DNA from: an uncultured Nitrososphaerota archaeon
GTDB lineage: Archaea; Korarchaeota; Korarchaeia; Korarchaeales; Korarchaeaceae
Length of the DNA stretch: 32,000 bases
NCBI GenBank assembly: GCA_964480775.1
Contig: CAYZRF010000004.1
Span: 56,816-88,815 of the forward strand
Direction: 5' to 3'
A program made the translations under genes and the position numbers. Numbering within the stretch: the first letter of the stretch is position 1; the number at the start of each line of letters is the position of its first letter. Below, piece by piece: positions 2,264-32,000 of the stretch. The notes under the pieces are model-generated. The model saw only the letters and a program-made list of their open reading frames with translations, made no database searches and was not told where the DNA came from.

Positions 2264-2443
2264 ATGAGGGTGATTTATCGTTTGTACGGTAAAGGAAGAG
2301 TGGAAGGAATGGTTTAAAGGAATGGAGGTAAAAGGCTTGGAAATGGATGTTTTATAATTCCTGTAGAGAGCCTGAACGAGCTCTTGAATTTCTTAAAGTG
2401 CAATGGCGTTGAATTCGAGGTAAATAAGGTGTACGCTCAATAG
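2264..2443 (+). pseudogene. Possible decayed small gene (59-codon frame interrupted by one in-frame TAA at 2315-2317)
   Basis: Frame from ATG 2264 reads MRVIYRLYGKGRVEGMV, then a stop, then RNGGKRLGNGCFIIPVESLNELLNFLKCNGVEFEVNKVYAQ and a final stop. There is no start codon after the internal stop. No family recognised. Confidence 0.25.
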
Positions 2444-2567
2444 CTAGGTTACATTGAAATCGGAAAACCCTATAACAAAATCAGAAGTAACCATGATACG
2501 ACCCCCTTATAGCCAGAAAAAAGCGAACGATCTACGTAGCAGGTTGGATGCAAGAAAAGAGGCTGGG

Positions 2568-5183
2568 TTAAAGCCTTGAAAAAAGCTTACCCAGCCACGA
2601 AGTTGATGTTTTAGCCCCCAAAGCCATAGCCGACAGTGCAAGGACCGAGGTTGATGCCATCGCTAGTGCGCTACTTCCAAGCATGTAAGAAGCGAGTACT
2701 AGCGCCAGGGATGAGGTAACACTAAGGAGAACGATCCTAAGTGACCTACGGCCCTTGAGTCTTTCATCTATTCTTCCGAGCATATACAGCACAGGTGACA
2801 TGTATATGACCCCGAGAATCGCGCAGCTAACCACCTCCATCAGCAAGAAACCGACTTCGATGTTAGCCTTGGCCAAGGGTTCAAACAGCCTTTGGCATAT
2901 CCTTAGAGTGTAGATTATCGGATACAGGAATGCTCTCATAAACGTCCTTAGACCCTTATTTTCCTCTATGGCTGATGCCACGGCGGGACTCCAAGAGTAG
3001 TAGAACTTATTGAAGGCACGCATGAAGGACCTGCCGAGAAAGCTTCTCATGACGATGTTGTCTCTGAACCCTCTCAGGAGCTGAACCTCATCAGACAGCT
3101 CGCTACCGTAGGTTGTGGTTGCAACAACGCATTTACCATGTTCGCTAATTACTATTGTTGCGGTTGCTGAACTTGATGCTCCCCCGCCTTCTCCTTTGAT
3201 GAAGAAGGTATAGGTTCCTGGTGTACTACCAGCTTTCACGTTTAGAGTGGAGATTCCGGTTGGTAAGATGGATGACTGATCGAAGCTCCAGGTGAAATCA
3301 GATGGAAGCCCCTCGACACTTAGATGCACGGTCTCAGCGGTTCCAGAGGTAAGCTCCACCTCCACCTTAAACGAGATGGTTCCTCCGGGTCCTACGTTTG
3401 CTTTCGGAGGCTTGACGCTCAGCACGAAGTTAAATGAGGAAGGAGTGGGAGAAGGAGAGGGCGATGGAGTTGGCGACGGGGTGGGCGAAGGCGTAGGAGA
3501 AGGAGAGGATGGTGTAGATGGAGGTGCGGGTGGTGGAGGAGCAGGATTTATGATCAGGGTCGCGGTGTCGCTGTGGGTCTTTCCTCCTCCACTGGCTGTG
3601 ACCGTAAACACAAAAGTTCCGGTCGTTTCCCCTGTACTGATCACGAGAGAGTAGGTGTAGGTGCCAACAGGGTTCAGCTGGTACGTTACATCCCCGGGCA
3701 GTCCTGAAACCGTTAGGCTAAGGGTTCCTGAGAAACCTCCTGTCGGAGTTATTGAAACTGTGTAGGATGCCTGTTTGCCTGCTTCCACGCTATTTTCTCC
3801 AGGAGATATACCTATGAGGAAATCTGGCTCCTCTGGCATGGCTATTGCGAAGGGACCTGCTCTATCCGTGTCGTATATGTCTAAAAACATGCCAAAGCAA
3901 TTGCTTATCACCTTAACCTCGATCAGACAATTGCTTGACTCTATCTCCGGAACCTCCCAGTCGTAACTCATCGTTCCGCCGGTGTTATCTATGCAGTCTA
4001 TCTTCGTCCAAGAAAATCCGCCATCGAAAGAGAATCTTATTTCAACCTTATTGCCTGGAGCCGAGGTCTCCCACCTTATCCTATACGTTTCGCCAGCTGT
4101 TATGGTTTCTCCTGTCACTGGCGCTATAAGGTGTATCTCATACTCTGTGGTGATCTTGAAAGTTCCAGCGCTCACATCCGTACAGTACTCTTCGGACGGA
4201 GTTCCGCAGCTTGACTTCCAAACAGCCTTTATCTTGCAAATGGAGGAGTCCTCTGTGGGAACCGTCCAATCGTATGAGCCGCTTGTAGATGGGTTCGGGA
4301 CGCAATCTATGAGATGATAGCTGGCTCCCCCGTCAACCGAGTAATACAGCTCGACAAATCCTCCTGGTTCCGATGTCAACCATCTTATTGTGAAGGTTTC
4401 ACCAGCCTTTAGGCTCTCTCCCCCGCTTGGATCCGTCAATGAGATCTTCATGTAATAAACCACGACGCGCGGTCGATCATCCCCTGAACAACATGGCACG
4501 CTTCCTCCTTCTCTAGATAGGAAATTTGCCCTGCAAGGATCTTCAGAAAGGAGCATCAAGCCGTAGTTCTCGTGATCGCCGTTGACAACTCCTTGCACGA
4601 ACTCAGTTATGTCCCAATCCACAAGCGAACAAGAGCTATCACTTACCGTCGTGCTTGCCGTTGGGTTGACGTGATCTCCTCCCTCATGCAGCCAATCTAG
4701 CGTACAGGTCCTCCTCCTCCAGGTCACGCAGTTCTCAGTAAAACCCCTAGGAAGCCTTTTTGCGCGTATTGTCATTGTGCCCCCAGTAGGATTAAACGAT
4801 TGTAGCCTTAGATAGAGCGTTGCCTCTATTACCTTTGCTCCGGCTGGAATAGAGCCTAAGGGAAAGTAGAGAACCGCTCTATATGTATCTCCACTGTATT
4901 TTCCAACGTGTAGATACCCATCAGATCCATAGTTGGTGTCCGGAGTTACGTCAGTAATAAAAGCGTCCTCCGTGGCGTATATCGTTTGCATTCCCATATC
5001 CATCATAGTTTGCATTCCTGAGTCCCTCCCCGAATCCTCAAACCCTGTTCCCATGCTTGATGTCAAATCTATGGTGTATTTGGCGCTTGCGGAGGATGAG
5101 AGAATGTCATATGTCCCATGCACGCTTCCGACTATGGTGGCGGCCAACAAAATTACTAGGAAGAAGGCTAACCTGCTGGACAT
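2568..5183 (-). CDS. Large secreted, membrane-anchored surface protein. It has a signal peptide, a DNRLRE-like domain, two pairs of beta-sandwich repeats, a Pro/Ser/Thr linker, a C-terminal Cys-box module and TM helices.
   Basis: 871 aa. The N-terminus is hydrophobic (MSSRLAFFLVILLAATIVGSVHG). Residues about 70-245 follow the DNRLRE-domain pattern (TNYGSDGYLHVG...YRAVLYFPL...AKVIEATLYLRL...VTW...NYGLML). Tandem homologous domains lie at about aa 246-326 and 349-429 (GE(S/T)..AGET..IRW.TS.PG..VE...S.DGG.S....DC......G..SYDW.VP...S..C.I). A second domain pair lies at about aa 455-546 and 584-680. The PT-rich linker is aa 547-583. CVVATTTYGSELSDEVQLLRGFRDN is followed by several hydrophobic helices. 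Confidence 0.8.
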   Translation of the reverse strand: MSSRLAFFLVILLAATIVGSVHGTYDILSSSASAKYTIDLTSSMGTGFEDSGRDSGMQTMMDMGMQTIYATEDAFITDVTPDTNYGSDGYLHVGKYSGDTYRAVLYFPLGSIPAGAKVIEATLYLRLQSFNPTGGTMTIRAKRLPRGFTENCVTWRRRTCTLDWLHEGGDHVNPTASTTVSDSSCSLVDWDITEFVQGVVNGDHENYGLMLLSEDPCRANFLSREGGSVPCCSGDDRPRVVVYYMKISLTDPSGGESLKAGETFTIRWLTSEPGGFVELYYSVDGGASYHLIDCVPNPSTSGSYDWTVPTEDSSICKIKAVWKSSCGTPSEEYCTDVSAGTFKITTEYEIHLIAPVTGETITAGETYRIRWETSAPGNKVEIRFSFDGGFSWTKIDCIDNTGGTMSYDWEVPEIESSNCLIEVKVISNCFGMFLDIYDTDRAGPFAIAMPEEPDFLIGISPGENSVEAGKQASYTVSITPTGGFSGTLSLTVSGLPGDVTYQLNPVGTYTYSLVISTGETTGTFVFTVTASGGGKTHSDTATLIINPAPPPPAPPSTPSSPSPTPSPTPSPTPSPSPSPTPSSFNFVLSVKPPKANVGPGGTISFKVEVELTSGTAETVHLSVEGLPSDFTWSFDQSSILPTGISTLNVKAGSTPGTYTFFIKGEGGGASSSATATIVISEHGKCVVATTTYGSELSDEVQLLRGFRDNIVMRSFLGRSFMRAFNKFYYSWSPAVASAIEENKGLRTFMRAFLYPIIYTLRICQRLFEPLAKANIEVGFLLMEVVSCAILGVIYMSPVLYMLGRIDERLKGRRSLRIVLLSVTSSLALVLASYMLGSSALAMASTSVLALSAMALGAKTSTSWLGKLFSRL
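3435..3545 (-). repeat. Low-complexity coding repeat (SPTP/SPSP Pro-Ser-Thr linker) inside the surface protein gene
   Basis: Encodes PAPPPPAPPSTPSSPSPTPSPTPSPTPSPSPSPTPSS. On the plus strand it appears as imperfect GGNGAN-type short-period repeats. Confidence 0.85.
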
Positions 5184-21103: not shown

Positions 21104-21232
21104 TGGGCCCGCCGGGACTTGAACCCGGGACCTCCGGCTTTCTTAGATTGTCCGGAGCGCAACCATATAAGGCTTACGCGTTGGCTCTCGAGAGCCGAAC
21201 TCGGCGCTCCATCCAGGCTGAGCTACGGGCCC
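21104..21232 (-). tRNA. tRNA with anticodon UAU (tRNA-Ile, AUA decoder) carrying two BHB introns
   Basis: The minus strand reads GGGCCCGTAGCTCAGCCTGGATGGAGCGCCG [28-nt intron, 21174-21201] GCCTTATA [26-nt intron, 21140-21165] AGCCGGAGGTCCCGGGTTCAAGTCCCGGCGGGCCCA. The spliced 75-nt product folds as a clean cloverleaf with anticodon arm CCGGC-CTTATAA-GCCGG. The anticodon TAT lies at 21169-21167. Both introns sit in 3-nt bulge / 4-bp helix / 3-nt bulge motifs that I folded by hand. Confidence 0.8.
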
Positions 21233-27059: not shown

Positions 27060-27181
27060 GCGGGGGTAGCCAAGCCAGGTCCAAATCTTCAAGGTTTCCC
27101 TCCTAGGGATGGCCAAAGGCGCTCGGTTCAGGGCCGAGTGGGCGTAGGCCCGCGCGGGTTCAAATCCCGCCCCCCGCACCA
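27060..27181 (+). tRNA. tRNA-Leu (CAG), class II, with an about 33-nt non-canonical intron in the D-loop; CCA encoded
   Basis: Acceptor GCGGGGG/CCCCCGC, anticodon arm CTCGG-TTCAGGG-CCGAG (CAG at 27129-27131), long variable arm TGGGCGTAGGCCCGC and T-arm GCGGG-TTCAAAT-CCCGC. The D-region AAGCCAGGTCCA...AGGC contains 33 extra nt. My best BHB-like fold has the 4-bp helix 27078-27081/27111-27114 flanked by 3-nt bulges, which places the intron at 27084-27116. Confidence 0.8.
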
Positions 27182-27472: not shown

Positions 27473-27524
27473 TTTTCTTATTTTACTATATTTAATTGCT
27501 TTTTTGGCATAAAAGAGACCGGAG
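27473..27524. terminator. T-rich spacer between convergent tRNA-Gln and tRNA-Arg (likely bidirectional oligo-T terminator)
   Basis: TTTTCTTATTTT and GCTTTTTTGG lie on the plus strand. TCTCTTTT and CCAAAAAAGC lie on the minus strand, immediately after each tRNA 3' end. Confidence 0.4.
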
Positions 27525-27840
27525 CGGGCCCGGCGGGACTTGAACCCGCGACCCCCGGCTCCGCAGGCCGGTGCTCTAATCCTCCTGAGCTACGGGCCCT
27601 AGTATTTCTAACACTTCCACCATTACTTAAAGTGTTCTCATGTTGTTCTCTAACGTCATGCTTAGTATTACCTTCTAATCTACTTATCCAATCTTCTAAT
27701 GCTCTTGTTAATACGGTACTTAATGATAGTCCATAATACTTGGCTTTATCATGTAGTCTTTTAGGAATAACAACTGTTGTTCTAATAGTAGGCTCCTCAT
27801 TAAACAACTCTTTTCTGCCTTTCTTAGTTCTCTTAACCAT
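27478..27840 (-). CDS. Int(N): N-terminal fragment of the split SSV-type integrase (RHH-like N-terminus), reading across attL into antisense tRNA sequence
   Basis: ATG at 27840 gives MVKRTKKGRKELFNEEPTIRTTVVIPKRLHDKAKYYGLSLSTVLTRALEDWISRLEG...NTRARSSGGLEHRPA. It then continues as antisense-tRNA read-through (EPGVAGSSPAGP...) to the stop at 27478. The track ORF begins further upstream at 27927. Confidence 0.7.
   Translation of the reverse strand: MVKRTKKGRKELFNEEPTIRTTVVIPKRLHDKAKYYGLSLSTVLTRALEDWISRLEGNTKHDVREQHENTLSNGGSVRNTRARSSGGLEHRPAEPGVAGSSPAGPAPVSFMPKKQLNIVK
27525..27599 (-). tRNA. tRNA-Arg (GCG); its 5' half is the attachment site of the integrated element
   Basis: The minus strand reads GGGCCCG-TA-GCTC-AGGAGGATTA-GAGC-A-CCGGC-CTGCGGA-GCCGG-GGGTC-GCGGG-TTCAAGT-CCCGC-CGGGCCC-G. 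Positions 27560-27599 are repeated at 31946-31985. Confidence 0.9.
27560..27601. repeat. attL (42 bp; tRNA-Arg nucleotides 1 to about 40 plus 2 upstream nt)
   Basis: TCCGCAGGCCGGTGCTCTAATCCTCCTGAGCTACGGGCCCTA is identical to 31946-31987. Confidence 0.9.
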
Positions 27841-28089: not shown

Positions 28090-28677
28090 ATGTCTAACTT
28101 GAATATTCAAGTTGAATATGAATATGTACCAAGAGCTAGTAGAAAGAAGTTACCATACACAATGAAGCACACAATTAGACTAGATAGAGAGACACTTAAG
28201 GTATTGAAGGTTCTAAGAGAGAAGTTAGGTCTACGTGATTATAGGTCTGTTATTAACTATCTAATCTTAACTGATAATGAGGTGGTAAAGAAACTTCTTT
28301 CATCAATTGATGATCCATATCAGAAACTTAAGATCTTAAGAGCTAAGAAAGTAATTGATGATCCAACTACATTAGCACTTATTGAACTACACAGTAAGAG
28401 GTCTGATAAGAAGAGACATGAACATGAGATTATAGCTGACACTAGTACACAAATAGAGAAAGTAAAGAGACTTAGAGGTAAGGAATTATATGATAGACTT
28501 CAAGAGTTGAAGGAACAAGATCAATTAATGAAAGAGAGACTAAGGAATGAGAGACTAAGACAAGATCAAATAGTTAATCTAATGATAGAATATGGTATAT
28601 CAGAGTATGATGCTAAGAGAATACTAGAACTATCTGAGACTGAGAGAAAGAAGGTTCTAACTAAACTCAAACACTAG
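28090..28677 (+). CDS. Element ORF, 195 aa: possible RHH-like N-terminal DNA-binding segment plus a highly charged coiled-coil tail
   Basis: HTIRLDRETLKVLKVLREKLGLRDYRSVINYLIL fits a beta-strand/helix/helix pattern. The C-terminal half is K/E/R-rich (KELYDRLQELKEQDQLMKERLRNERLRQDQ). No family recognised. Confidence 0.5.
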   Translation: MSNLNIQVEYEYVPRASRKKLPYTMKHTIRLDRETLKVLKVLREKLGLRDYRSVINYLILTDNEVVKKLLSSIDDPYQKLKILRAKKVIDDPTTLALIELHSKRSDKKRHEHEIIADTSTQIEKVKRLRGKELYDRLQELKEQDQLMKERLRNERLRQDQIVNLMIEYGISEYDAKRILELSETERKKVLTKLKH

Positions 28678-28707
28678 ATAAAAAAGAGAGAATAGAGGTG
28701 GTGCAAT

Positions 28708-28731
28708 ATATATAGTAGATCTCTACTATAT
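28708..28731. repeat. 24-bp palindrome TATATAGTAGA-TC-TCTACTATATA in an element intergenic region
   Basis: 11-bp perfect inverted arms with a 2-nt spacer. The half-site TCTACTATAT recurs at 28769-28778. Confidence 0.7.
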
Positions 28732-28871
28732 AAGACTAACTCAATCTACAATGACCTATATTATACTATTCTACTATATCTAGTAAGTCTATATTATATA
28801 TGTCTATCTCTAGTAAAAGATCAGACCACCGCACTCTTAGCAAAATTAAGATCTAATAGAGGTGGTACTGC

Positions 28872-29540
28872 TTGACATCAAAGCCATTTTACTATAAGAC
28901 TAAAAACAACATAGTGTTCTATTCTGTTTACTTTAGTGACCTCAAATACAAAGAAGTTTATGAATACCTTCAAACAGTGCTTTGGAGTCTTAACATAGAT
29001 GAGATACAGAAGAGCATAATGGATGATGCATTGACTGAAATACATAGAGACAGAAGAAGAAACAAACCACTACCTATTAACGCAGATCAAGGTTACTTCT
29101 TTGAAGCAGTAGTAAAAGCAGGAACACAATACCAATATATGTACAAATCTCATTATAGTGGAATAAAGTGGTATGGAGATCATGGAATACGTGCATGGTA
29201 TGGCCATAAAGGATCTGACCTAATATTATATGTCGATGACAGACCTCTAACTATTGAATGTAAGTTCTTCTTAGATTCTACATACTATAATCATATTCAC
29301 ATGAAGAATATTCTATCTTCTGACATCTTCATTACAACTGAATTATTAAAACCAAGAGATCTCATTAAGGCTAGAGTATCTGTAATGGAATGTGGTAAGC
29401 CTAAGTCTAAAGACCTTTATGACATATTGATGTGGGTAGAAACTACTTTATCTAATCACATGACTCATGAACTAGATGATATACTTAGATCAGCAATATT
29501 GAGAAAATATCCTGATAGAATAACCTTAGTAAATGACTAA
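28872..29540 (+). CDS. Element ORF, 222 aa: hypothetical, possible PD-(D/E)xK nuclease-fold signature
   Basis: TTG start preceded by the SD-like GAGGTGGT. The pattern is E (FFEAVVK), then about 40 aa, then GSDLILYVDDRPLTIECKF (D...E-x-K). This is a motif-level guess only. Confidence 0.45.
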   Translation: MTSKPFYYKTKNNIVFYSVYFSDLKYKEVYEYLQTVLWSLNIDEIQKSIMDDALTEIHRDRRRNKPLPINADQGYFFEAVVKAGTQYQYMYKSHYSGIKWYGDHGIRAWYGHKGSDLILYVDDRPLTIECKFFLDSTYYNHIHMKNILSSDIFITTELLKPRDLIKARVSVMECGKPKSKDLYDILMWVETTLSNHMTHELDDILRSAILRKYPDRITLVND

Positions 29541-29691
29541 CTGAAGTTATTACAACTTTCAAAAAGCACACAAATAACATCCTTATTAGACGACTATAAC
29601 TACAATCGTATTCCAAATAACTAGAGAAAAATATTTACTAAACAAGAGTATAGAGGAAATCCCCAAAGGGTGCAATTTTCAAGACTGTTGA

Positions 29692-29735
29692 AAATACAAA
29701 GTACAAATACTACAAATACAAAGAACAAATGAGCA
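29692..29735. repeat. Two tandem about 22-nt units rich in ACAAAT in the convergent intergenic region of the element
   Basis: AAATACAAAGTACAAATACTAC and AAATACAAAGAACAAATGAGCA match at 16 of 22 positions. The inverted copy TTGTATTTGT lies at 29799-29808. Confidence 0.6.
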
Positions 29736-29875
29736 AACTACATACAACATGATATTTGATCCAACATAGTAGACTCATCATATTAGCTACTCAGTATATT
29801 GTATTTGTTGAATGTTGAAGTTAATCCACGCTATATTATGATTAAAAATAACTCAAATGTATTCCAAGTTAACTT

Positions 29876-31024
29876 CTATTTTCTAATTTTGTTGAGTACA
29901 TATTTGATAAAGTTCTTTACAATGAAAATAATCATGGCAGACATCAATGATGCAAAGATTTTTGCAAAGATGTCTTCGATATAGAATGCAATTTTTTCTT
30001 TAAGATAATGAAGAATGAACGGAAATGCAAGGACTCCTACTAAAATTGATATAAAGATTTCAGGCTTAGCAATATATTGTAACGTTTTAAGAAACCTTAT
30101 TTTATTCTTTTGATGCCAAACTATTGGGGTTGTATGCTCTAATGCAAACATTTTGAGAGCGTCAAAATCATTACCTTCGTGATTTCTTAATTCACTTACA
30201 TAATACCTTAAATTTGTAGTTAGCATTTCCATCAATTCTTCACTATATTTAATTCGATCTATTTCATTAGGATTCTGAGAGTAGATCATTATTTTCAAAA
30301 TAGTGAAGGCATCTTTTTGAATAAGTTGAGCCGCAACTCTTTCTTCATATCTTCTGAAAACTACGAATTGCACTCCATCGTTAGTTAATTCTTTCATTTT
30401 TTCAAAACCTAAAACATTCATAATTTCCCCAAAGTTTCTATAAAGACTGTTAAGATCTGTCATGACTTTAAAAACAACTTTGTATGGCTCTTCGCGAATT
30501 GGAATACCTATTATTCTTTTAGATATGGCTGTTGATAACCAATACCCTATTAGACCGGGAAGAAAATAGTAAAACGAAACTACAATGTAGTAGAGCAAAT
30601 TCCACGTTCTATAGTACAAAATGAAATAAAATAGAAGTGATGAGATTATAGAAAAAGAAGCACAATATTTAGTATAAATTAGCGTCTCATATACAAGAGA
30701 AAGCAAAGAACCTAAAGGTACCGTTAATGTTAAAAAAAGAACTCCTATTAATAGCAAAAATTTTGCATAGAACTCTAAGGATTCAAAGTAGAAGGTTTCT
30801 CCTAGTTTTGTATAGAGAATATAAGCTGAATTACTTAGAATAAGACCAACAGCAATTGAGGTAGCTAAAGTAAATAAGCTTTTTTGGATGTTTGAATGCT
30901 CTTCTCTTACATATACGTGTTGGAACAAATCAGGATAATTTTGGAGTAATTCTATGAATGAAGATATGTCTTTTCTCTCTCTTGCTTCTTTGAGTTTCTT
31001 CCTTATTTCTACCTTATCAGGCAT
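29876..31024 (-). CDS. Element ORF, 382 aa: polytopic membrane protein with a central soluble domain, hypothetical
   Basis: A charged N-terminus is followed by about 4 hydrophobic helices (aa about 50-170), a soluble region (about 175-320) and 2 C-terminal helices. It lies 65 nt downstream of the integrase stop on the same strand. No family recognised. Confidence 0.55.
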   Translation of the reverse strand: MPDKVEIRKKLKEARERKDISSFIELLQNYPDLFQHVYVREEHSNIQKSLFTLATSIAVGLILSNSAYILYTKLGETFYFESLEFYAKFLLLIGVLFLTLTVPLGSLLSLVYETLIYTKYCASFSIISSLLFYFILYYRTWNLLYYIVVSFYYFLPGLIGYWLSTAISKRIIGIPIREEPYKVVFKVMTDLNSLYRNFGEIMNVLGFEKMKELTNDGVQFVVFRRYEERVAAQLIQKDAFTILKIMIYSQNPNEIDRIKYSEELMEMLTTNLRYYVSELRNHEGNDFDALKMFALEHTTPIVWHQKNKIRFLKTLQYIAKPEIFISILVGVLAFPFILHYLKEKIAFYIEDIFAKIFASLMSAMIIFIVKNFIKYVLNKIRK

Positions 31025-31089: not shown

Positions 31090-31926
31090 TCAAGTTAGTA
31101 CTTTAGGATTAGCTCTTTGATATATTTCTCTTAGAACATCTATTGAATAATCAGCATAGTGTCTAGCAATAACGCCTTTAGGTATTCTACCACAGAAGGC
31201 ATCTATGTAATGTGATGGTACTCCTTTCTTAGCTAACTCTACATTAAACCATAACCTACAAGTCTTCAATGTTATGTTAAGACCAGTCTTCTTTATAGCC
31301 TTATGAAATATGTATGAGTCTTTACCACATGAATATGGAAATAGTCTATTAGACCTAGTCTTTCTAGTTCTCAGATATTTCTTTAGCACATGTAAAGCTT
31401 CATCATTACAGAAAGTTATGAATGAATGTTTGGTTCTAGATCCATCATAGCACTTAGGAATGATAAGACCAGTATCTACGTCTATATCATCTACTGTAAG
31501 ACTCAATAGCTCTTTCTTTCTTAGTCCACTAGTACAAGCAACTAGGAATAATGCTTTCTCTTTCAACGTATCCAATGCATTATAGAATGTTCTTAGTTGT
31601 TCAATACTAGGCACTCTCTTAGGTGTATATGTCTTAGGTGGATACTTGAAACCATCAAGTAAGTTTTCTCTATTCACATACCTAAAGACATGCTTTAGAC
31701 TTGCTAAGTAGTTCTTGTATGTTCCACTAGACTTAGTGTTCTTGATCGATAATAAGAACTCTCTTATATTCTCTTTACTTGCTATATATGGATTGTATTT
31801 CTCTAGAAACTTCTTAGCTACTCTAATAGTCTGAAGCATTGTTCTCTTACTAAGTTGTAAATCAACTAGTAGGTATGTCTTGAACTCATCTATATTGAAC
31901 TCATCTATACAGTCTCCATTTTGCAT
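31090..31926 (-). CDS. Int(C): catalytic C-terminal part of the SSV-type tyrosine recombinase
   Basis: 278 aa from the internal ATG. The frame stays open upstream through attR to the window end. ACTSGLRKKELLSL (catalytic Arg) and KTCRLWFNVELAKKGVPSHYIDAFCGRIPKGVIARHYADY align by eye to the SSV1 integrase blocks ALESGVRLSEIL and [39 protein letters not shown]. Confidence 0.85.
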   Translation of the reverse strand: MQNGDCIDEFNIDEFKTYLLVDLQLSKRTMLQTIRVAKKFLEKYNPYIASKENIREFLLSIKNTKSSGTYKNYLASLKHVFRYVNRENLLDGFKYPPKTYTPKRVPSIEQLRTFYNALDTLKEKALFLVACTSGLRKKELLSLTVDDIDVDTGLIIPKCYDGSRTKHSFITFCNDEALHVLKKYLRTRKTRSNRLFPYSCGKDSYIFHKAIKKTGLNITLKTCRLWFNVELAKKGVPSHYIDAFCGRIPKGVIARHYADYSIDVLREIYQRANPKVLT

Positions 31927-31945: not shown

Positions 31946-31987
31946 TCCGCAGGCCGGTGCTCTAATCCTCCTGAGCTACGGGCCCTA
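31946..31987. repeat. attR (42 bp; orphan 5' half of tRNA-Arg without the 3' half)
   Basis: Identical to 27560-27601. The sequence to its left (TTATTGGTA) is not tRNA-like, so this is not a second tRNA gene. Confidence 0.9.
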
Positions 31988-32000
31988 ATTATAAGAAGAT

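What the first reader, a model, noticed from the sequence alone, without database searches (positions are those of the whole stretch)
28090..31024. Element cargo: three ORFans with no recognisable replication, capsid or partition gene
Apart from the integrase, the 4.4-kb element encodes three proteins:
- A 195-aa protein with an RHH-like N-terminal segment and a long charged coiled coil.
- A 222-aa protein with an E...D...ExK arrangement (FFEAVVK ... GSDLILYVDDRPLTIECKF) reminiscent of PD-(D/E)xK nucleases.
- A 382-aa protein with about 6 TM helices around a soluble domain.

I recognise no Rep, primase/helicase, major capsid protein or plasmid CopG/PlrA/RepA-type set. Either replication is fully host-dependent or satellite-like, or one of these ORFs is a novel replication or packaging function.

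A DNA-binder, a nuclease-like protein and a membrane protein on a tiny mobile element could alternatively be an exclusion or defence-type module. Few or no mobile elements have been characterised for deep-branching lineages of this kind.
Basis: inference. Interest (0 to 1): 0.65.

Follow-up and report, generated by a model that had tools for sequence, protein, structure and literature searches.

The report
Tiny archaeal integrated element's orphan cargo
A real 4.4-kb mobile element sits in a tRNA gene of an uncultivated archaeon; it carries three genes almost unique in public data, one probably a DNA-cutting enzyme, and it is a new example of a known class of small cryptic archaeal elements rather than a new kind of system.

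Summary
A perfect 42-bp repeat (27560-27601 and 31946-31987), an empty site in a related genome and a drop in G+C from 44% to 31% prove a 4,386-bp insertion in tRNA-Arg(GCG). The three ORFs are real. They match no protein family, solved structure, plasmid or virus.

They are not strict orphans. An exhaustive search plus context look-ups found four related element loci. These share an RHH DNA-binding protein, and the three that reach that gene share the nuclease-like protein.

E78, D116, E129 and K131 are invariant in all three nuclease homologues. Sub-threshold matches to Hjc and NERD fall exactly on this motif. AlphaFold failed (pLDDT about 35), so the fold is untested.

The membrane protein is not conserved.

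A fourth ORF was missed: an RHH piece at attL. In the excised circle it joins in frame to the integrase, which makes this an SSV-type ("suicidal") integrase. About 120 metagenome loci confirm the pattern.

A 270-nt non-coding stretch after the nuclease gene is more conserved than the gene itself.

Best reading: a cryptic integrated element copied passively with the chromosome, with an RHH-plus-nuclease backbone resembling the D244 nuclease region next to the fusellovirus integrase. A defence or addiction cassette is a close rival.

The parts
27524..27599 (-). Intact tRNA-Arg(GCG), the integration target. Its 5' half lies inside attL.
   Evidence: ARAGORN; Rfam tRNA, 66.4 bits.
27560..27601 (.). 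attL, the left copy of the 42-bp perfect direct repeat.
   Evidence: the repeat finder family D3, 100% identity, spacing 4386.
27478..27840 (-). The element-encoded part is 27602-27840. It then reads through attL into the tRNA. In the excised circle it is in frame with the integrase.
   Evidence: Circular reconstruction gives one 378-aa ORF. 71% identical to the L002 counterpart. RHH pattern aligned across 12 loci. Pfam CcdA E=0.013 and PHROG Arc-like E=0.09.
28090..28677 (+). 195-aa protein: RHH-like N-terminus (about residues 25-62), conserved DPTTxALxExHSKRxDK block, charged helical region (100-165), conserved C-terminal helix pair.
   Evidence: 53% identical homologue in L002. L003 and L125 carry it as separate 48-aa RHH and 68/73-aa helical ORFs. 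Pfam RHH_1 only E=0.36.
28678..28871 (.). Intergenic region with a perfect palindrome TATATAGTAGA-tc-TCTACTATATA (28709-28732), two degenerate copies (28757-28779, 28777-28799) and a duplicated ATAGAGGTGGT box. Candidate operator and promoter of the nuclease-like gene.
   Evidence: the repeat finder; TRF period 30, score 87; sequence read. Function is inferred.
28872..29540 (+). 222-aa putative PD-(D/E)xK nuclease, Hjc/NERD-like core: E78, D116, E129, K131.
   Evidence: Exhaustive phmmer found P0006 (E=3e-4) and P0008 (E=9.5e-4). The motif is invariant in the alignment. Sub-threshold Pfam matches to Hjc (E=0.098) and NERD (E=0.84) lie on the motif. hhalign against Hjc gave P=0.018 with D/ExK in register. 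Fold not verified.
29554..29826 (.). Conserved non-coding region downstream of the nuclease-like gene. It contains a TACAAATAC x2 tandem (29702-29719) and a 15-nt block TGATATTTGATCCAA shared with L002. Candidate cis-acting site, possibly an origin or regulatory site.
   Evidence: 70-72% identity to L002 by blastn. 68.6% identity against 48% for shuffled controls, with stops in all six frames. No convincing RNA structure, -4.6 kcal/mol. No Rfam hit.
29876..31024 (-). 382-aa polytopic membrane protein (about 4+2 transmembrane segments around a soluble domain). Variable cargo, not conserved in the related elements.
   Evidence: Hydropathy. Only a self hit. No similarity to the L003 306-aa membrane protein or to the L002 convergent ORF.
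31090..31926 (-). Int(C): 278-aa tyrosine recombinase (core-binding plus catalytic domains; R136, K166, R224, Y257).
   Evidence: Pfam PF00589 4e-11 and PF16795 5.5e-8; PHROG 1 at 1e-25. 37% identical to the L003 integrase. 145 related ORFs in metagenome loci.
31946..31987 (.). attR, the right copy of the 42-bp repeat (a partial tRNA copy).
   Evidence: The flank 31946-32000 is contiguous with the tRNA in the empty site L001.

Best explanation
**What it is (shown).** The interval is the cargo of a genuine 4,386-bp cryptic integrated element in tRNA-Arg(GCG) of an uncultivated Thermoproteota archaeon.

**How it moves (shown).** The element is moved by an SSV-type ('suicidal') tyrosine integrase. 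The attP site lies inside a 378-aa RHH-integrase gene. Integration therefore leaves an RHH piece at attL and the 278-aa catalytic piece at attR.

**What the cargo consists of (shown).**
1. A conserved two-gene backbone found in a small family of related elements: an RHH-plus-charged-helix DNA-binding protein followed by a nuclease-like protein of about 200-260 aa with an invariant E...D...ExK motif.
2. A conserved non-coding region.
3. A variable membrane protein.

**How it most likely works (inferred).**
- There is no replication initiator, so in the chromosome the element is copied passively.
- The RHH protein binds the palindromes upstream of the nuclease gene and regulates it.
- The nuclease is an Hjc-like PD-(D/E)xK enzyme that acts on the element's own DNA. 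It may resolve junctions or replication intermediates, or control copy number or integration, during the short episomal phase.
- This is the role proposed for the D244/D212 nuclease, which lies beside small DNA-binding proteins and the suicidal integrase in fuselloviruses.
For: **Element and boundaries.**

**Split integrase.**
- In the reconstructed circle the RHH ORF reads in frame into the integrase.
- In L115, L122 and L037 the att-encoded peptide is duplicated at the end of Int(N) and the start of Int(C).
- Uninterrupted ORFs of 370-400 aa in L078, L121, L119, L017 and L034 are collinear with the reconstruction.
- The integrase matches PF16795. PMC8371274 names that domain as the mark of suicidal integrases.

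**Backbone conservation.**
- L002 lies in the same host synteny and at the same tRNA-Arg. It has Int(N) at 71%, the RHH protein at 53% and the nuclease-like protein at 27% identity.
- L003 has integrase, RHH, helical protein, nuclease-like protein and a membrane protein.
- L125 and L126 have tRNA-Thr, Int(N), RHH and the helical protein.

**Nuclease motif.**
- G74, Y75, E78, D116, E129 and K131 are invariant.
- P0008 PDIKVY..ISIECKF aligns to Hjc PDIIAL..ILIEMKS (Pfam E=0.098). P0006 aligns to NERD positions 2-58.
- hhalign against Hjc gave P=0.018, against 0.17-0.31 for controls.

**Cis elements.**

**No replication, capsid or defence family.**

**Fusellovirus parallel.**
- The SSV1 T5 transcript carries RHH E-51, wHTH F-93 and nuclease D-244 upstream of the integrase.
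- In SSVRH the order is HTH protein, D212 nuclease, integrase.
- D212 has an Hjc-like PD-(D/E)xK fold. Deleting d244 leaves viable virus but retards host growth (PMC4187194, PMC3367457).

**Rarity.** There are three members among 1.84 billion cluster representatives, all three on elements of this family. This fits lineage-bound backbone genes.
Against: - No statistically significant link to any PD-(D/E)xK family. The best values are E=0.098 and an HH probability of 2.6%.
- Both AlphaFold2 runs failed (pLDDT 35.7 and 34.5), so the fold is unverified.
- Profile comparison with the D212/D244 family gave no signal. The D212-versus-Hjc positive control also failed, so that test is insensitive.
- The nuclease-like protein has diverged far more (27%) than its neighbours (53-71%). 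That pattern is more typical of defence or toxin genes.
- Larger elements with the same integrase type carry defence-like cargo: a restriction-modification pair, Mrr/NERD, and AAA_15/21 ATPases. One has an ordinary primase-type Rep.
- Binding of the RHH protein to the palindromes and any nuclease activity are untested.
- 'Coiled coil' was not supported by the heptad test.
Confidence: 0.42

Rival explanations
1. Defence, exclusion or addiction cassette. The PD-(D/E)xK protein is a toxin or effector nuclease. The RHH protein is its repressor, or a fused repressor-antitoxin; in L003 the functions are split into RHH plus a helical protein, an order like omega-epsilon-zeta. The membrane protein is an accessory effector or sensor. 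The element is a small defence island on an integrase.
For: - Sibling elements with the same RHH-integrase carry a BsaWI-type restriction enzyme plus methylase, an Mrr_cat/NERD fusion, and AAA_15/AAA_21 ATPases.
- The nuclease-like protein evolves much faster (27% identity) than its neighbours.
- The same cassette (91% nucleotide identity) is attached to different integrase halves and different tRNA targets in L003 and L125.
- The order regulator, small helical protein, enzyme in L003 resembles tripartite toxin-antitoxin operons (the comparison is from my own knowledge).
Against: - No PADLOC, Pfam or NCBIfam defence or toxin family matches at any useful threshold.
- The pair is the only gene content shared by these minimal elements. 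That is what one expects of backbone genes, not of cargo.
- The family is extremely rare, with three members among 1.84 billion representatives. Defence genes usually spread widely.
- A conserved non-coding region follows the gene, which a simple toxin model does not explain.
Confidence: 0.3
2. Novel minimal replicon. The conserved non-coding region (29554-29826) is an origin. The RHH protein binds it, or the palindromes. The PD-(D/E)xK protein is a nicking or melting initiator, so the excised circle replicates autonomously.
For: - The non-coding region is 69-72% identical between two elements whose adjacent nuclease genes are only 27% identical at the protein level.
- It holds short tandem repeats (TACAAATAC x2), and the repeats differ between the two elements.
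- There is no other replication gene.
- The pair is conserved across the family.
Against: - I know of no PD-(D/E)xK replication initiator in archaeal plasmids.
- If the nuclease recognised the conserved site, the two would be expected to co-vary rather than diverge independently.
- A sibling element uses an ordinary PriCT-1 primase-type protein.
- Tiny integrase-only elements without a Rep are already known (PMC6563490).
Confidence: 0.15
3. Satellite or virus-like element. The membrane protein is a vesicle or virion membrane component. The element is packaged by a helper spindle-shaped or pleomorphic virus, as pSSVx and pSSVi are by SSV.
For: - SSV-type integrase.
- Gene set reminiscent of the fusellovirus early region.
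- Polytopic membrane proteins in the window and in L003.
Against: - No similarity to any PHROG or GenBank virus protein, and no hit in IMG/VR.
- The membrane proteins of the window and L003 are unrelated, and L002 has a soluble-looking protein in that position.
- No helper virus is known.
Confidence: 0.08
4. Decaying remnant. The element is locked in the chromosome after its integrase gene was split, and the ORFs no longer have a function.
For: - Suicidal integration splits the integrase gene (PMC8371274).
- A Shine-Dalgarno-like box at 28692-28702 has no ORF, whereas L002 has a 62-aa gene at that position.
Against: - The att repeats are perfect.
- All long ORFs are intact in AT-rich DNA.
- The catalytic motif residues are conserved across homologues.
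- Int(C) keeps its own ATG and both domains.
Confidence: 0.05

Closest known systems
Cryptic integrated elements (CIE) of archaea, e.g. NitUzo-E2 of Thaumarchaeota (Krupovic et al. 2019, PMC6563490)
   Same: A small element bounded by att repeats at a tRNA gene, with a tyrosine integrase, one or two small DNA-binding proteins and hypothetical proteins. It has no identifiable replication, capsid or conjugation gene. NitUzo-E2 is 2.6 kb with four genes.
   Different: Different host lineage (an uncultivated Thermoproteota related to Guaymas MAG B15_G15). Split SSV-type integrase with an RHH N-terminus. The cargo proteins share no detectable similarity with anything catalogued.
SSV-type (type I, 'suicidal') integrases of SSV, pTN3 and pT26-2 elements (Badel et al., PMC7253208, PMC8371274)
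   Same: attP lies inside the integrase ORF. Integration yields Int(N) and Int(C) at opposite ends. PF16795 domain. tRNA target. Int(N) and Int(C) halves are reshuffled between related elements (L003 versus L125).
   Different: Int(N) here is a ribbon-helix-helix domain followed by a conserved TNGG motif. Neither paper mentions RHH (0 occurrences). Int(C) keeps a complete core-binding plus catalytic unit with its own ATG. The window's element targets the 5' half of the tRNA. The hosts are uncultured archaea known only from metagenome assemblies and MAGs, not Sulfolobales or Thermococcales.
Fusellovirus early (T5) region: SSV1 D-244 / SSVRH D212 nuclease with RHH and wHTH proteins next to the integrase
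   Same: A protein of about 200-250 aa of PD-(D/E)xK, Hjc-like type, encoded beside small DNA-binding proteins and a suicidal integrase (PMC4187194). Dispensable for virion production, but it affects the virus-host balance (PMC3367457).
   Different: No detectable sequence or profile similarity, although the test was insensitive. No capsid or other fusellovirus genes. The element is a third the size of a fusellovirus.
Archaeal Holliday junction resolvase Hjc (PF01870) and NERD (PF08378) nucleases
   Same: Motif order and spacing: GxxxE in a helix, then PD, then 12 residues, then ExK. The sub-threshold Pfam matches fall exactly on these motifs.
   Different: E-values of 0.098 and 0.84 are below any family cut-off. 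The proteins have extra N-terminal (about 70-130 aa) and C-terminal regions. Fold and activity are unverified.
pRN-type crenarchaeal plasmids (CopG-PlrA-RepA), including integrated pXQ1-like copies
   Same: Small size, an RHH (CopG-fold) regulator, and the ability of some members to integrate at tRNA genes (from my own knowledge).
   Different: No PlrA and no primase-polymerase/helicase RepA is detectable.

Membership tests
Site-specifically integrated mobile element at a tRNA gene | Direct repeats (attL/attR) identical to part of the target tRNA flank the insert | tested here: met
   42-bp perfect repeat at 27560-27601 and 31946-31987, equal to the 5' half of tRNA-Arg(GCG).
Site-specifically integrated mobile element at a tRNA gene | An uninterrupted (empty) site exists in a related genome | tested here: met
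   In L001 (QMVZ01000033.1), bases 2276-3983 match window 27601-25887 at 92%. Bases 2263-2317 match window 32000-31946 at 100%.
SSV-type (suicidal) archaeal integrase | attP lies within the integrase ORF, so integration separates Int(N) from Int(C) | tested here: met
   The circular reconstruction gives one 378-aa ORF. The att-encoded peptide is duplicated at both ends in L115, L122 and L037. The reconstruction is collinear with unsplit 370-400-aa ORFs.
SSV-type (suicidal) archaeal integrase | Phage_integr_3 (PF16795) catalytic domain with the tyrosine-recombinase catalytic residues | tested here: met
   PF16795 at 5.5e-8 and PF00589 at 4e-11. R136, K166, R224 and Y257 are conserved with L003. 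The first His of HxxR is Lys in the window.
SSV-type (suicidal) archaeal integrase | Catalyses integration and excision at the att site | not testable with these tools
   Needs an in vitro recombination assay or junction reads.
Cryptic integrated element (CIE) | Integrase-bounded element without viral hallmark, conjugation, casposase or transposase genes | tested here: met
   No significant Pfam, PHROG or PADLOC hit for the cargo. No tblastn hit in plasmids or phages.
PD-(D/E)xK nuclease superfamily (Hjc-like) | Conserved acidic and lysine residues in the order E ... D ... (D/E)xK on helix-strand-strand elements | tested here: met
   E78, D116, E129 and K131 are invariant in the three known homologues, with a D-to-E spacing of 13 as in Hjc.
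PD-(D/E)xK nuclease superfamily (Hjc-like) | Statistically significant sequence or profile match to a member family | tested here: inconclusive
   Pfam Hjc E=0.098 (P0008) and NERD E=0.84 (P0006). hhalign against Hjc gave P=0.018 and probability 2.6%. The PDB profile search found no nuclease.
PD-(D/E)xK nuclease superfamily (Hjc-like) | Alpha-beta-beta-beta-alpha-beta core fold | not testable with these tools
   AlphaFold2 gave pLDDT 35.7 for the single sequence and 34.5 for the 3-sequence alignment. A fold search on such models would be meaningless and was not run.
Fusellovirus D244/D212 nuclease family | Sequence or profile homology to SSV1 D-244 / SSVRH D212 | tested here: inconclusive
   hhalign of A1 against a 6-sequence D212 alignment gave P=0.56. 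The positive control (D212 versus Hjc) also gave no signal.
Ribbon-helix-helix (CopG/Arc/MetJ) superfamily, N-terminus of the 195-aa protein | Beta-strand, helix, Gly turn, helix pattern that matches an RHH profile | tested here: inconclusive
   The pattern I-x-L-x-x-E-T...L...G-L..Y..VI..L is shared with L002, the L003 48-aa ORF and an L119 ORF. Pfam RHH_1 gave only E=0.36.
pRN-type plasmid / primase-helicase replicon | RepA primase-polymerase or superfamily-3 helicase, and PlrA | tested here: not met
   No such Pfam domain in any element ORF. No tblastn hit in PLSDB.
Known anti-phage defence systems (PADLOC) / toxin-antitoxin families | A match to a defence or toxin model | tested here: not met
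   PADLOC gave nothing for the 195- and 222-aa proteins, and only noise (E >= 0.009) for the 382-aa protein.

The most novel reading that the evidence does not exclude
The RHH protein, the PD-(D/E)xK nuclease and the conserved 270-nt non-coding region together form a self-contained replication and maintenance module of a new type. It would be an origin plus a nuclease-type initiator or resolvase. It would let minimal integrative plasmids of uncultivated Thermoproteota persist as circles without any known Rep family. The RHH-tipped suicidal integrase would then be a previously undescribed integrase architecture, widespread in environmental metagenome contigs.
Probability: 0.15. Interest if true: 0.75.

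Novelty: new variant of a known kind. Interest (0 to 1): 0.45.

Why it matters
- If the backbone proves functional, it would give a minimal (4.4-kb) natural integrative vector for an archaeal lineage that has no genetic tools.
- It would give a second, independent case of a nuclease paired with a suicidal integrase. That could help explain the long-unclear role of fusellovirus D244/D212.
- The RHH domain on Int(N) is found here across many metagenome loci. It suggests how these integrases dimerise or bind arm sites, and it is not mentioned in the two suicidal-integrase papers I searched.
- Otherwise the finding is one more cryptic integrated element with orphan genes, which is common in archaea.

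Tried and rejected
**Searches that found nothing**
1. Word-indexed homology searches for all three proteins returned only self hits.
2. An exact look-up of the window's own protein found nothing on record.
3. Four IMG/VR scans (integrase, 222-aa protein, alignments A2 and A4) found no relatives. Alignment A3 found one distant integrase.
4. A metagenome scan with the nuclease alignment gave 153 pattern matches, none confirmed.
5. PDB sequence and profile searches gave only noise.
6. tblastn of all three proteins against PLSDB and GenBank phages gave no match.

**Structure and profile tests that failed**
7. AlphaFold2 on the single sequence and on the 3-sequence alignment gave pLDDT of about 35. 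Fold search was therefore not attempted.
8. hhalign of the nuclease family against YraN (P=0.12) and against D212 (P=0.56) gave no support. A positive control showed that the method is too weak with such thin profiles.

**Ideas considered and dropped**
9. A helix-hairpin-helix reading of the C-terminal GISEYDAKRIL motif of the 195-aa protein got no Pfam support.
10. Homology between the window's 382-aa membrane protein and the 306-aa one of L003 was not found by blastp, jackhmmer or hhalign.
11. The coiled-coil heptad test was not significant.
12. A structured RNA in the conserved non-coding region is unlikely. RNAalifold gave -4.6 kcal/mol and there was no Rfam hit.
13. A small conserved ORF in that region is excluded, because all six frames contain stops.
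14. A type III toxin-antitoxin (repeat RNA) reading of the 28707-28810 repeats was considered. I rejected it as unsupported: there are only about 2-3 degenerate copies, and the putative toxin is not ToxN-like.
15. A literature search for the host MAG name found nothing relevant.

Full report
**1. The observation**

The three ORFs are at the stated coordinates. They lie inside a well-defined insertion.
- A perfect 42-bp direct repeat (27560-27601 and 31946-31987, spacing 4386 bp) equals the 5' half of tRNA-Arg(GCG) at 27524-27599 on the minus strand.
- G+C falls from 0.443 in the host part to 0.311 inside.
- The host flank carries topoisomerase VI subunits B and A and a tRNA cluster, so the host is an archaeon.
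- An exact search for the att sequence in 185,579 species genomes gave one hit: a Guaymas Basin MAG named Thermoproteota archaeon B15_G15.
- That contig is 92% identical to the host flank. In it the tRNA is directly joined to the bases that lie right of attR in the window. It is an empty site, and it proves the insertion.

**2. Are the three proteins orphans?**

- Pfam, PHROGs and PADLOC gave nothing significant for any of them.
- Each protein found only itself among 5.8 billion protein clusters.
- PDB sequences, PLSDB plasmids, GenBank phages and IMG/VR gave nothing.
- An exhaustive phmmer search of 1.84 billion cluster representatives with the 222-aa protein did find two weak but real homologues: P0006 (199 aa, E=3e-4) and P0008 (257 aa, E=9.5e-4). 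Three other hits were repeat proteins and I discarded them.

**3. Context of the homologues**

*L002 (47-kb JGI contig, carries P0006).*
- The host synteny is the same: Topo VI B/A, then tRNA-Glu, tRNA-Gln and tRNA-Arg.
- A related element sits at the same tRNA-Arg.
- It has a small RHH ORF reading into the tRNA (71% identical to a window ORF), a 185-aa homologue of the 195-aa protein (53%), a 62-aa ORF, and P0006. The contig then ends.

*L003 (3.6-kb contig from the same sample, carries P0008).*
- The order is tRNA-like att, integrase (37% identical to the window's), a 48-aa RHH, a 73-aa helical protein, P0008, and a convergent 306-aa polytopic membrane protein.

*L125 and L126.*
- Cluster look-ups led to these two loci. 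The L003-type RHH and helical genes (91% nucleotide identity) lie next to an Int(N)-type RHH ORF and tRNA-Thr.

The cargo therefore belongs to a small family of elements. Four related loci are known besides the window; L125 and L126 are 99% identical over their overlap and represent one element. The RHH protein occurs in all of them, and the nuclease-like protein in the window, L002 and L003, the only ones whose sequence reaches that gene. The membrane protein is not shared:
- The window and L003 proteins show no similarity by blastp, jackhmmer or hhalign.
- L002 has a soluble-looking C-terminus in the equivalent convergent gene.

**4. The nuclease-like protein**

- In the three-way alignment G74, Y75, E78, D116, E129 and K131 are invariant.
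- At relaxed thresholds, P0008 residues 161-197 (GGPDIKVYNNNKWISIECKF...) match Pfam Hjc positions 29-65 (E=0.098).
- P0006 residues 66-123 match NERD positions 2-58 (E=0.84). Both matches lie on the motif region.
A local hhalign against them puts D116, E129 and K131 on Hjc D42, E55 and K57, with P=0.018. Unrelated controls gave 0.17-0.31.
- None of this is significant on its own. Together it makes a PD-(D/E)xK core likely; I estimate about 70%.
- The structural test could not be done. AlphaFold2 gave pLDDT 35.7 for the single sequence and 34.5 for the three-sequence alignment. I did not run fold searches on such models.

**5. The 195-aa protein**

- Its N-terminus has the strand, helix, Gly turn, helix pattern of RHH proteins. 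The pattern is shared with L002, the L003 48-aa ORF and an ORF in L119. Pfam RHH_1 reaches only E=0.36.
- Residues 100-165 are 45% charged and almost free of Pro and Gly. A simple heptad test did not support a coiled coil.
- A helix-hairpin-helix reading of the conserved C-terminus got no support.

**6. A fourth ORF and the nature of the integrase**

- On the minus strand an ORF starts at 27840. It has a clear RHH pattern (Pfam CcdA 0.013; PHROG Arc-like 0.09) and runs through attL into the tRNA.
- When the element is circularised in silico, this ORF continues in frame through att into the 278-aa integrase. The result is a 378-aa protein.
- In-frame read-through alone has roughly a one-in-three chance, so I tested it on relatives.
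- A degenerate DNA pattern for YID...GR.P....A.HY retrieved 120 metagenome loci. They contain 145 related integrase ORFs.
- Some loci have uninterrupted RHH-integrase ORFs of 370-400 aa, collinear with the reconstruction (L078, L121, L119, L017, L034).
- Others are split, with Int(C) at one end and an RHH Int(N) at the other. In these the att-encoded peptide is duplicated at both ends: L115 (about 3 kb), L122 (4.1 kb) and L037 (3.4 kb).
- This is the defining property of SSV-type or 'suicidal' integrases. It agrees with the PF16795 match (PMC8371274).
- Neither the review nor the primary paper on suicidal integrases mentions an RHH domain.
- None of the 120 loci carries a homologue of the three cargo proteins.

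**7. What the sibling elements carry**

- L118 (11.5 kb) has an 825-aa PriCT-1 primase-type protein, a DNA methylase and a BsaWI-type restriction enzyme.
- L072 has an Mrr_cat/NERD fusion and an AAA_15/21 ATPase.
- L082 has an AAA_15/21 ATPase.
- L122, L082 and L039 share a different pair of small proteins.

My reading is that each sub-lineage has a small conserved backbone and that larger members add defence-type cargo.

**8. Non-coding features**

- The 194-nt spacer before the nuclease gene has a perfect palindrome TATATAGTAGA-tc-TCTACTATATA (28709-28732) and two degenerate copies.
- The region after the nuclease gene (29554-29826) is 70-72% identical to L002 by blastn.
- In the pairwise alignment it is 68.6% identical, against 48% (maximum 52%) for shuffled controls, and all six frames contain stops.
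- It holds a TACAAATAC tandem. It has no convincing RNA structure and no Rfam match.
- It is better conserved than the 195-aa gene (64% at the DNA level) and far better than the nuclease gene, which shows no DNA-level match. A cis-acting DNA site is the simplest reading. An origin is one possibility.

**9. Comparison with known systems**

- The element fits the class of cryptic integrated elements defined for Thaumarchaeota. [quoted passage not shown]
- The closest functional parallel to the cargo is the fusellovirus early region.
  - In SSV1, RHH E-51, wHTH F-93 and nuclease D-244 lie upstream of the suicidal integrase on transcript T5.
  - In SSVRH the order is HTH protein, D212 nuclease, integrase.
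  - D212 has an Hjc-like PD-(D/E)xK fold with unclear activity (PMC4187194).
  - Deleting d244 leaves viable virus but slows host growth. Its authors suggest roles in integration specificity, copy number, or resolution of replication intermediates (PMC3367457).
- I found no profile similarity between the two families. My positive control (D212 versus Hjc) also failed, so that test is uninformative.

**10. Verdict**

*Shown.*
- A genuine integrated element with precise ends.
- A split RHH-integrase.
- Near-orphan cargo genes that form a small family.
- An invariant E-D-ExK motif.
- A conserved non-coding region.
- No known replication, capsid, partition or defence family.

*Inferred.*
- A PD-(D/E)xK fold and nuclease activity.
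- Regulation by the RHH protein at the palindromes.
- A role in processing the element's own DNA (confidence 0.42).

*Rivals.*
- A defence or addiction cassette (0.30).
- A novel replicon (0.15).
- A satellite of an unknown virus (0.08).
- A decaying remnant (0.05).

The element is a new variant of a known kind. It is of moderate interest.

Noticed in passing
window 27478-27840 (-) with 31090-31926 (-): The small RHH ORF at attL and the integrase at attR form one 378-aa ORF in the excised circle. This is a suicidal (SSV-type) integrase with a ribbon-helix-helix N-terminal domain and a conserved TNGG motif. The two suicidal-integrase papers I searched do not mention such a domain.
   Followed up: yes
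window 29554-29826; L002 10605-10909: A non-coding region downstream of the nuclease-like gene is 69-72% identical between two elements whose adjacent proteins are only 27% identical. It contains a TACAAATAC tandem and a shared 15-mer TGATATTTGATCCAA. It has no RNA structure and no ORF. It may be an origin or regulatory site.
   Followed up: partly
window 28684-28866: A perfect 11+11 palindrome (28709-28732) with two degenerate copies, and a duplicated ATAGAGGTGGT box (28692-28702 and 28856-28866). The second box precedes the TTG start of the 222-aa gene. The first has no ORF, whereas L002 has a 62-aa one-TM ORF at that position.
   Followed up: partly
window 31880-31909: A perfect 15-bp tandem duplication (TTGAACTCATCTATA x2) lies inside the 5' end of the integrase gene, about 40 bp from attR. 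It encodes IDEFNIDEF. It could be an arm-type binding site or simply a recent duplication.
   Followed up: no
window 27060-27178 (+) and 21104-21232 (-): Rfam finds two long tRNA matches (119 and 129 nt), which are probably intron-containing tRNAs. ARAGORN truncated the first (tRNA-Leu, 27103-27177) and missed the second. Part of the second resembles the 3' part of tRNA-Arg (91% over 35 nt to L001).
   Followed up: no
L003 895-1511 versus L125 9667-10279: The same RHH-plus-helical-protein cassette (91% nucleotide identity) abuts the 3' end of an Int(C) gene in L003, with an unidentified tRNA-like att. In L125 it abuts the upstream side of an Int(N) gene at tRNA-Thr. This is evidence that integrase halves and cargo have been reshuffled, as proposed for suicidal integrases.
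   Followed up: partly
L118 621-12095; L072 2-10239; L082 3037-9430: Larger integrated elements bounded by the same RHH-integrase type carry defence-like cargo: a BsaWI-type restriction enzyme plus methylase, an Mrr_cat/NERD fusion, and AAA_15/AAA_21 ATPases. One also has a PriCT-1 primase-type replication protein.
   Followed up: partly
L115 1044-1769 (+) and 2076-2453 (-): A 3-kb sibling element carries a 241-aa orphan with a possible E...D...SxK arrangement (GQELF ... FDFII ... ISVKT). It is convergent with a 125-aa membrane-anchored protein. This layout echoes the window's nuclease-like and membrane gene pair, but there is no detectable homology.
   Followed up: no
window 27602-27640 (- strand, upstream of tRNA-Arg): After integration, the sequence upstream of the tRNA-Arg 5' end is element DNA. 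It includes a TTTAAGTAA TATA-like box about 25-33 nt upstream. Expression of the host tRNA may therefore depend on the element or on read-through from Int(N).
   Followed up: no
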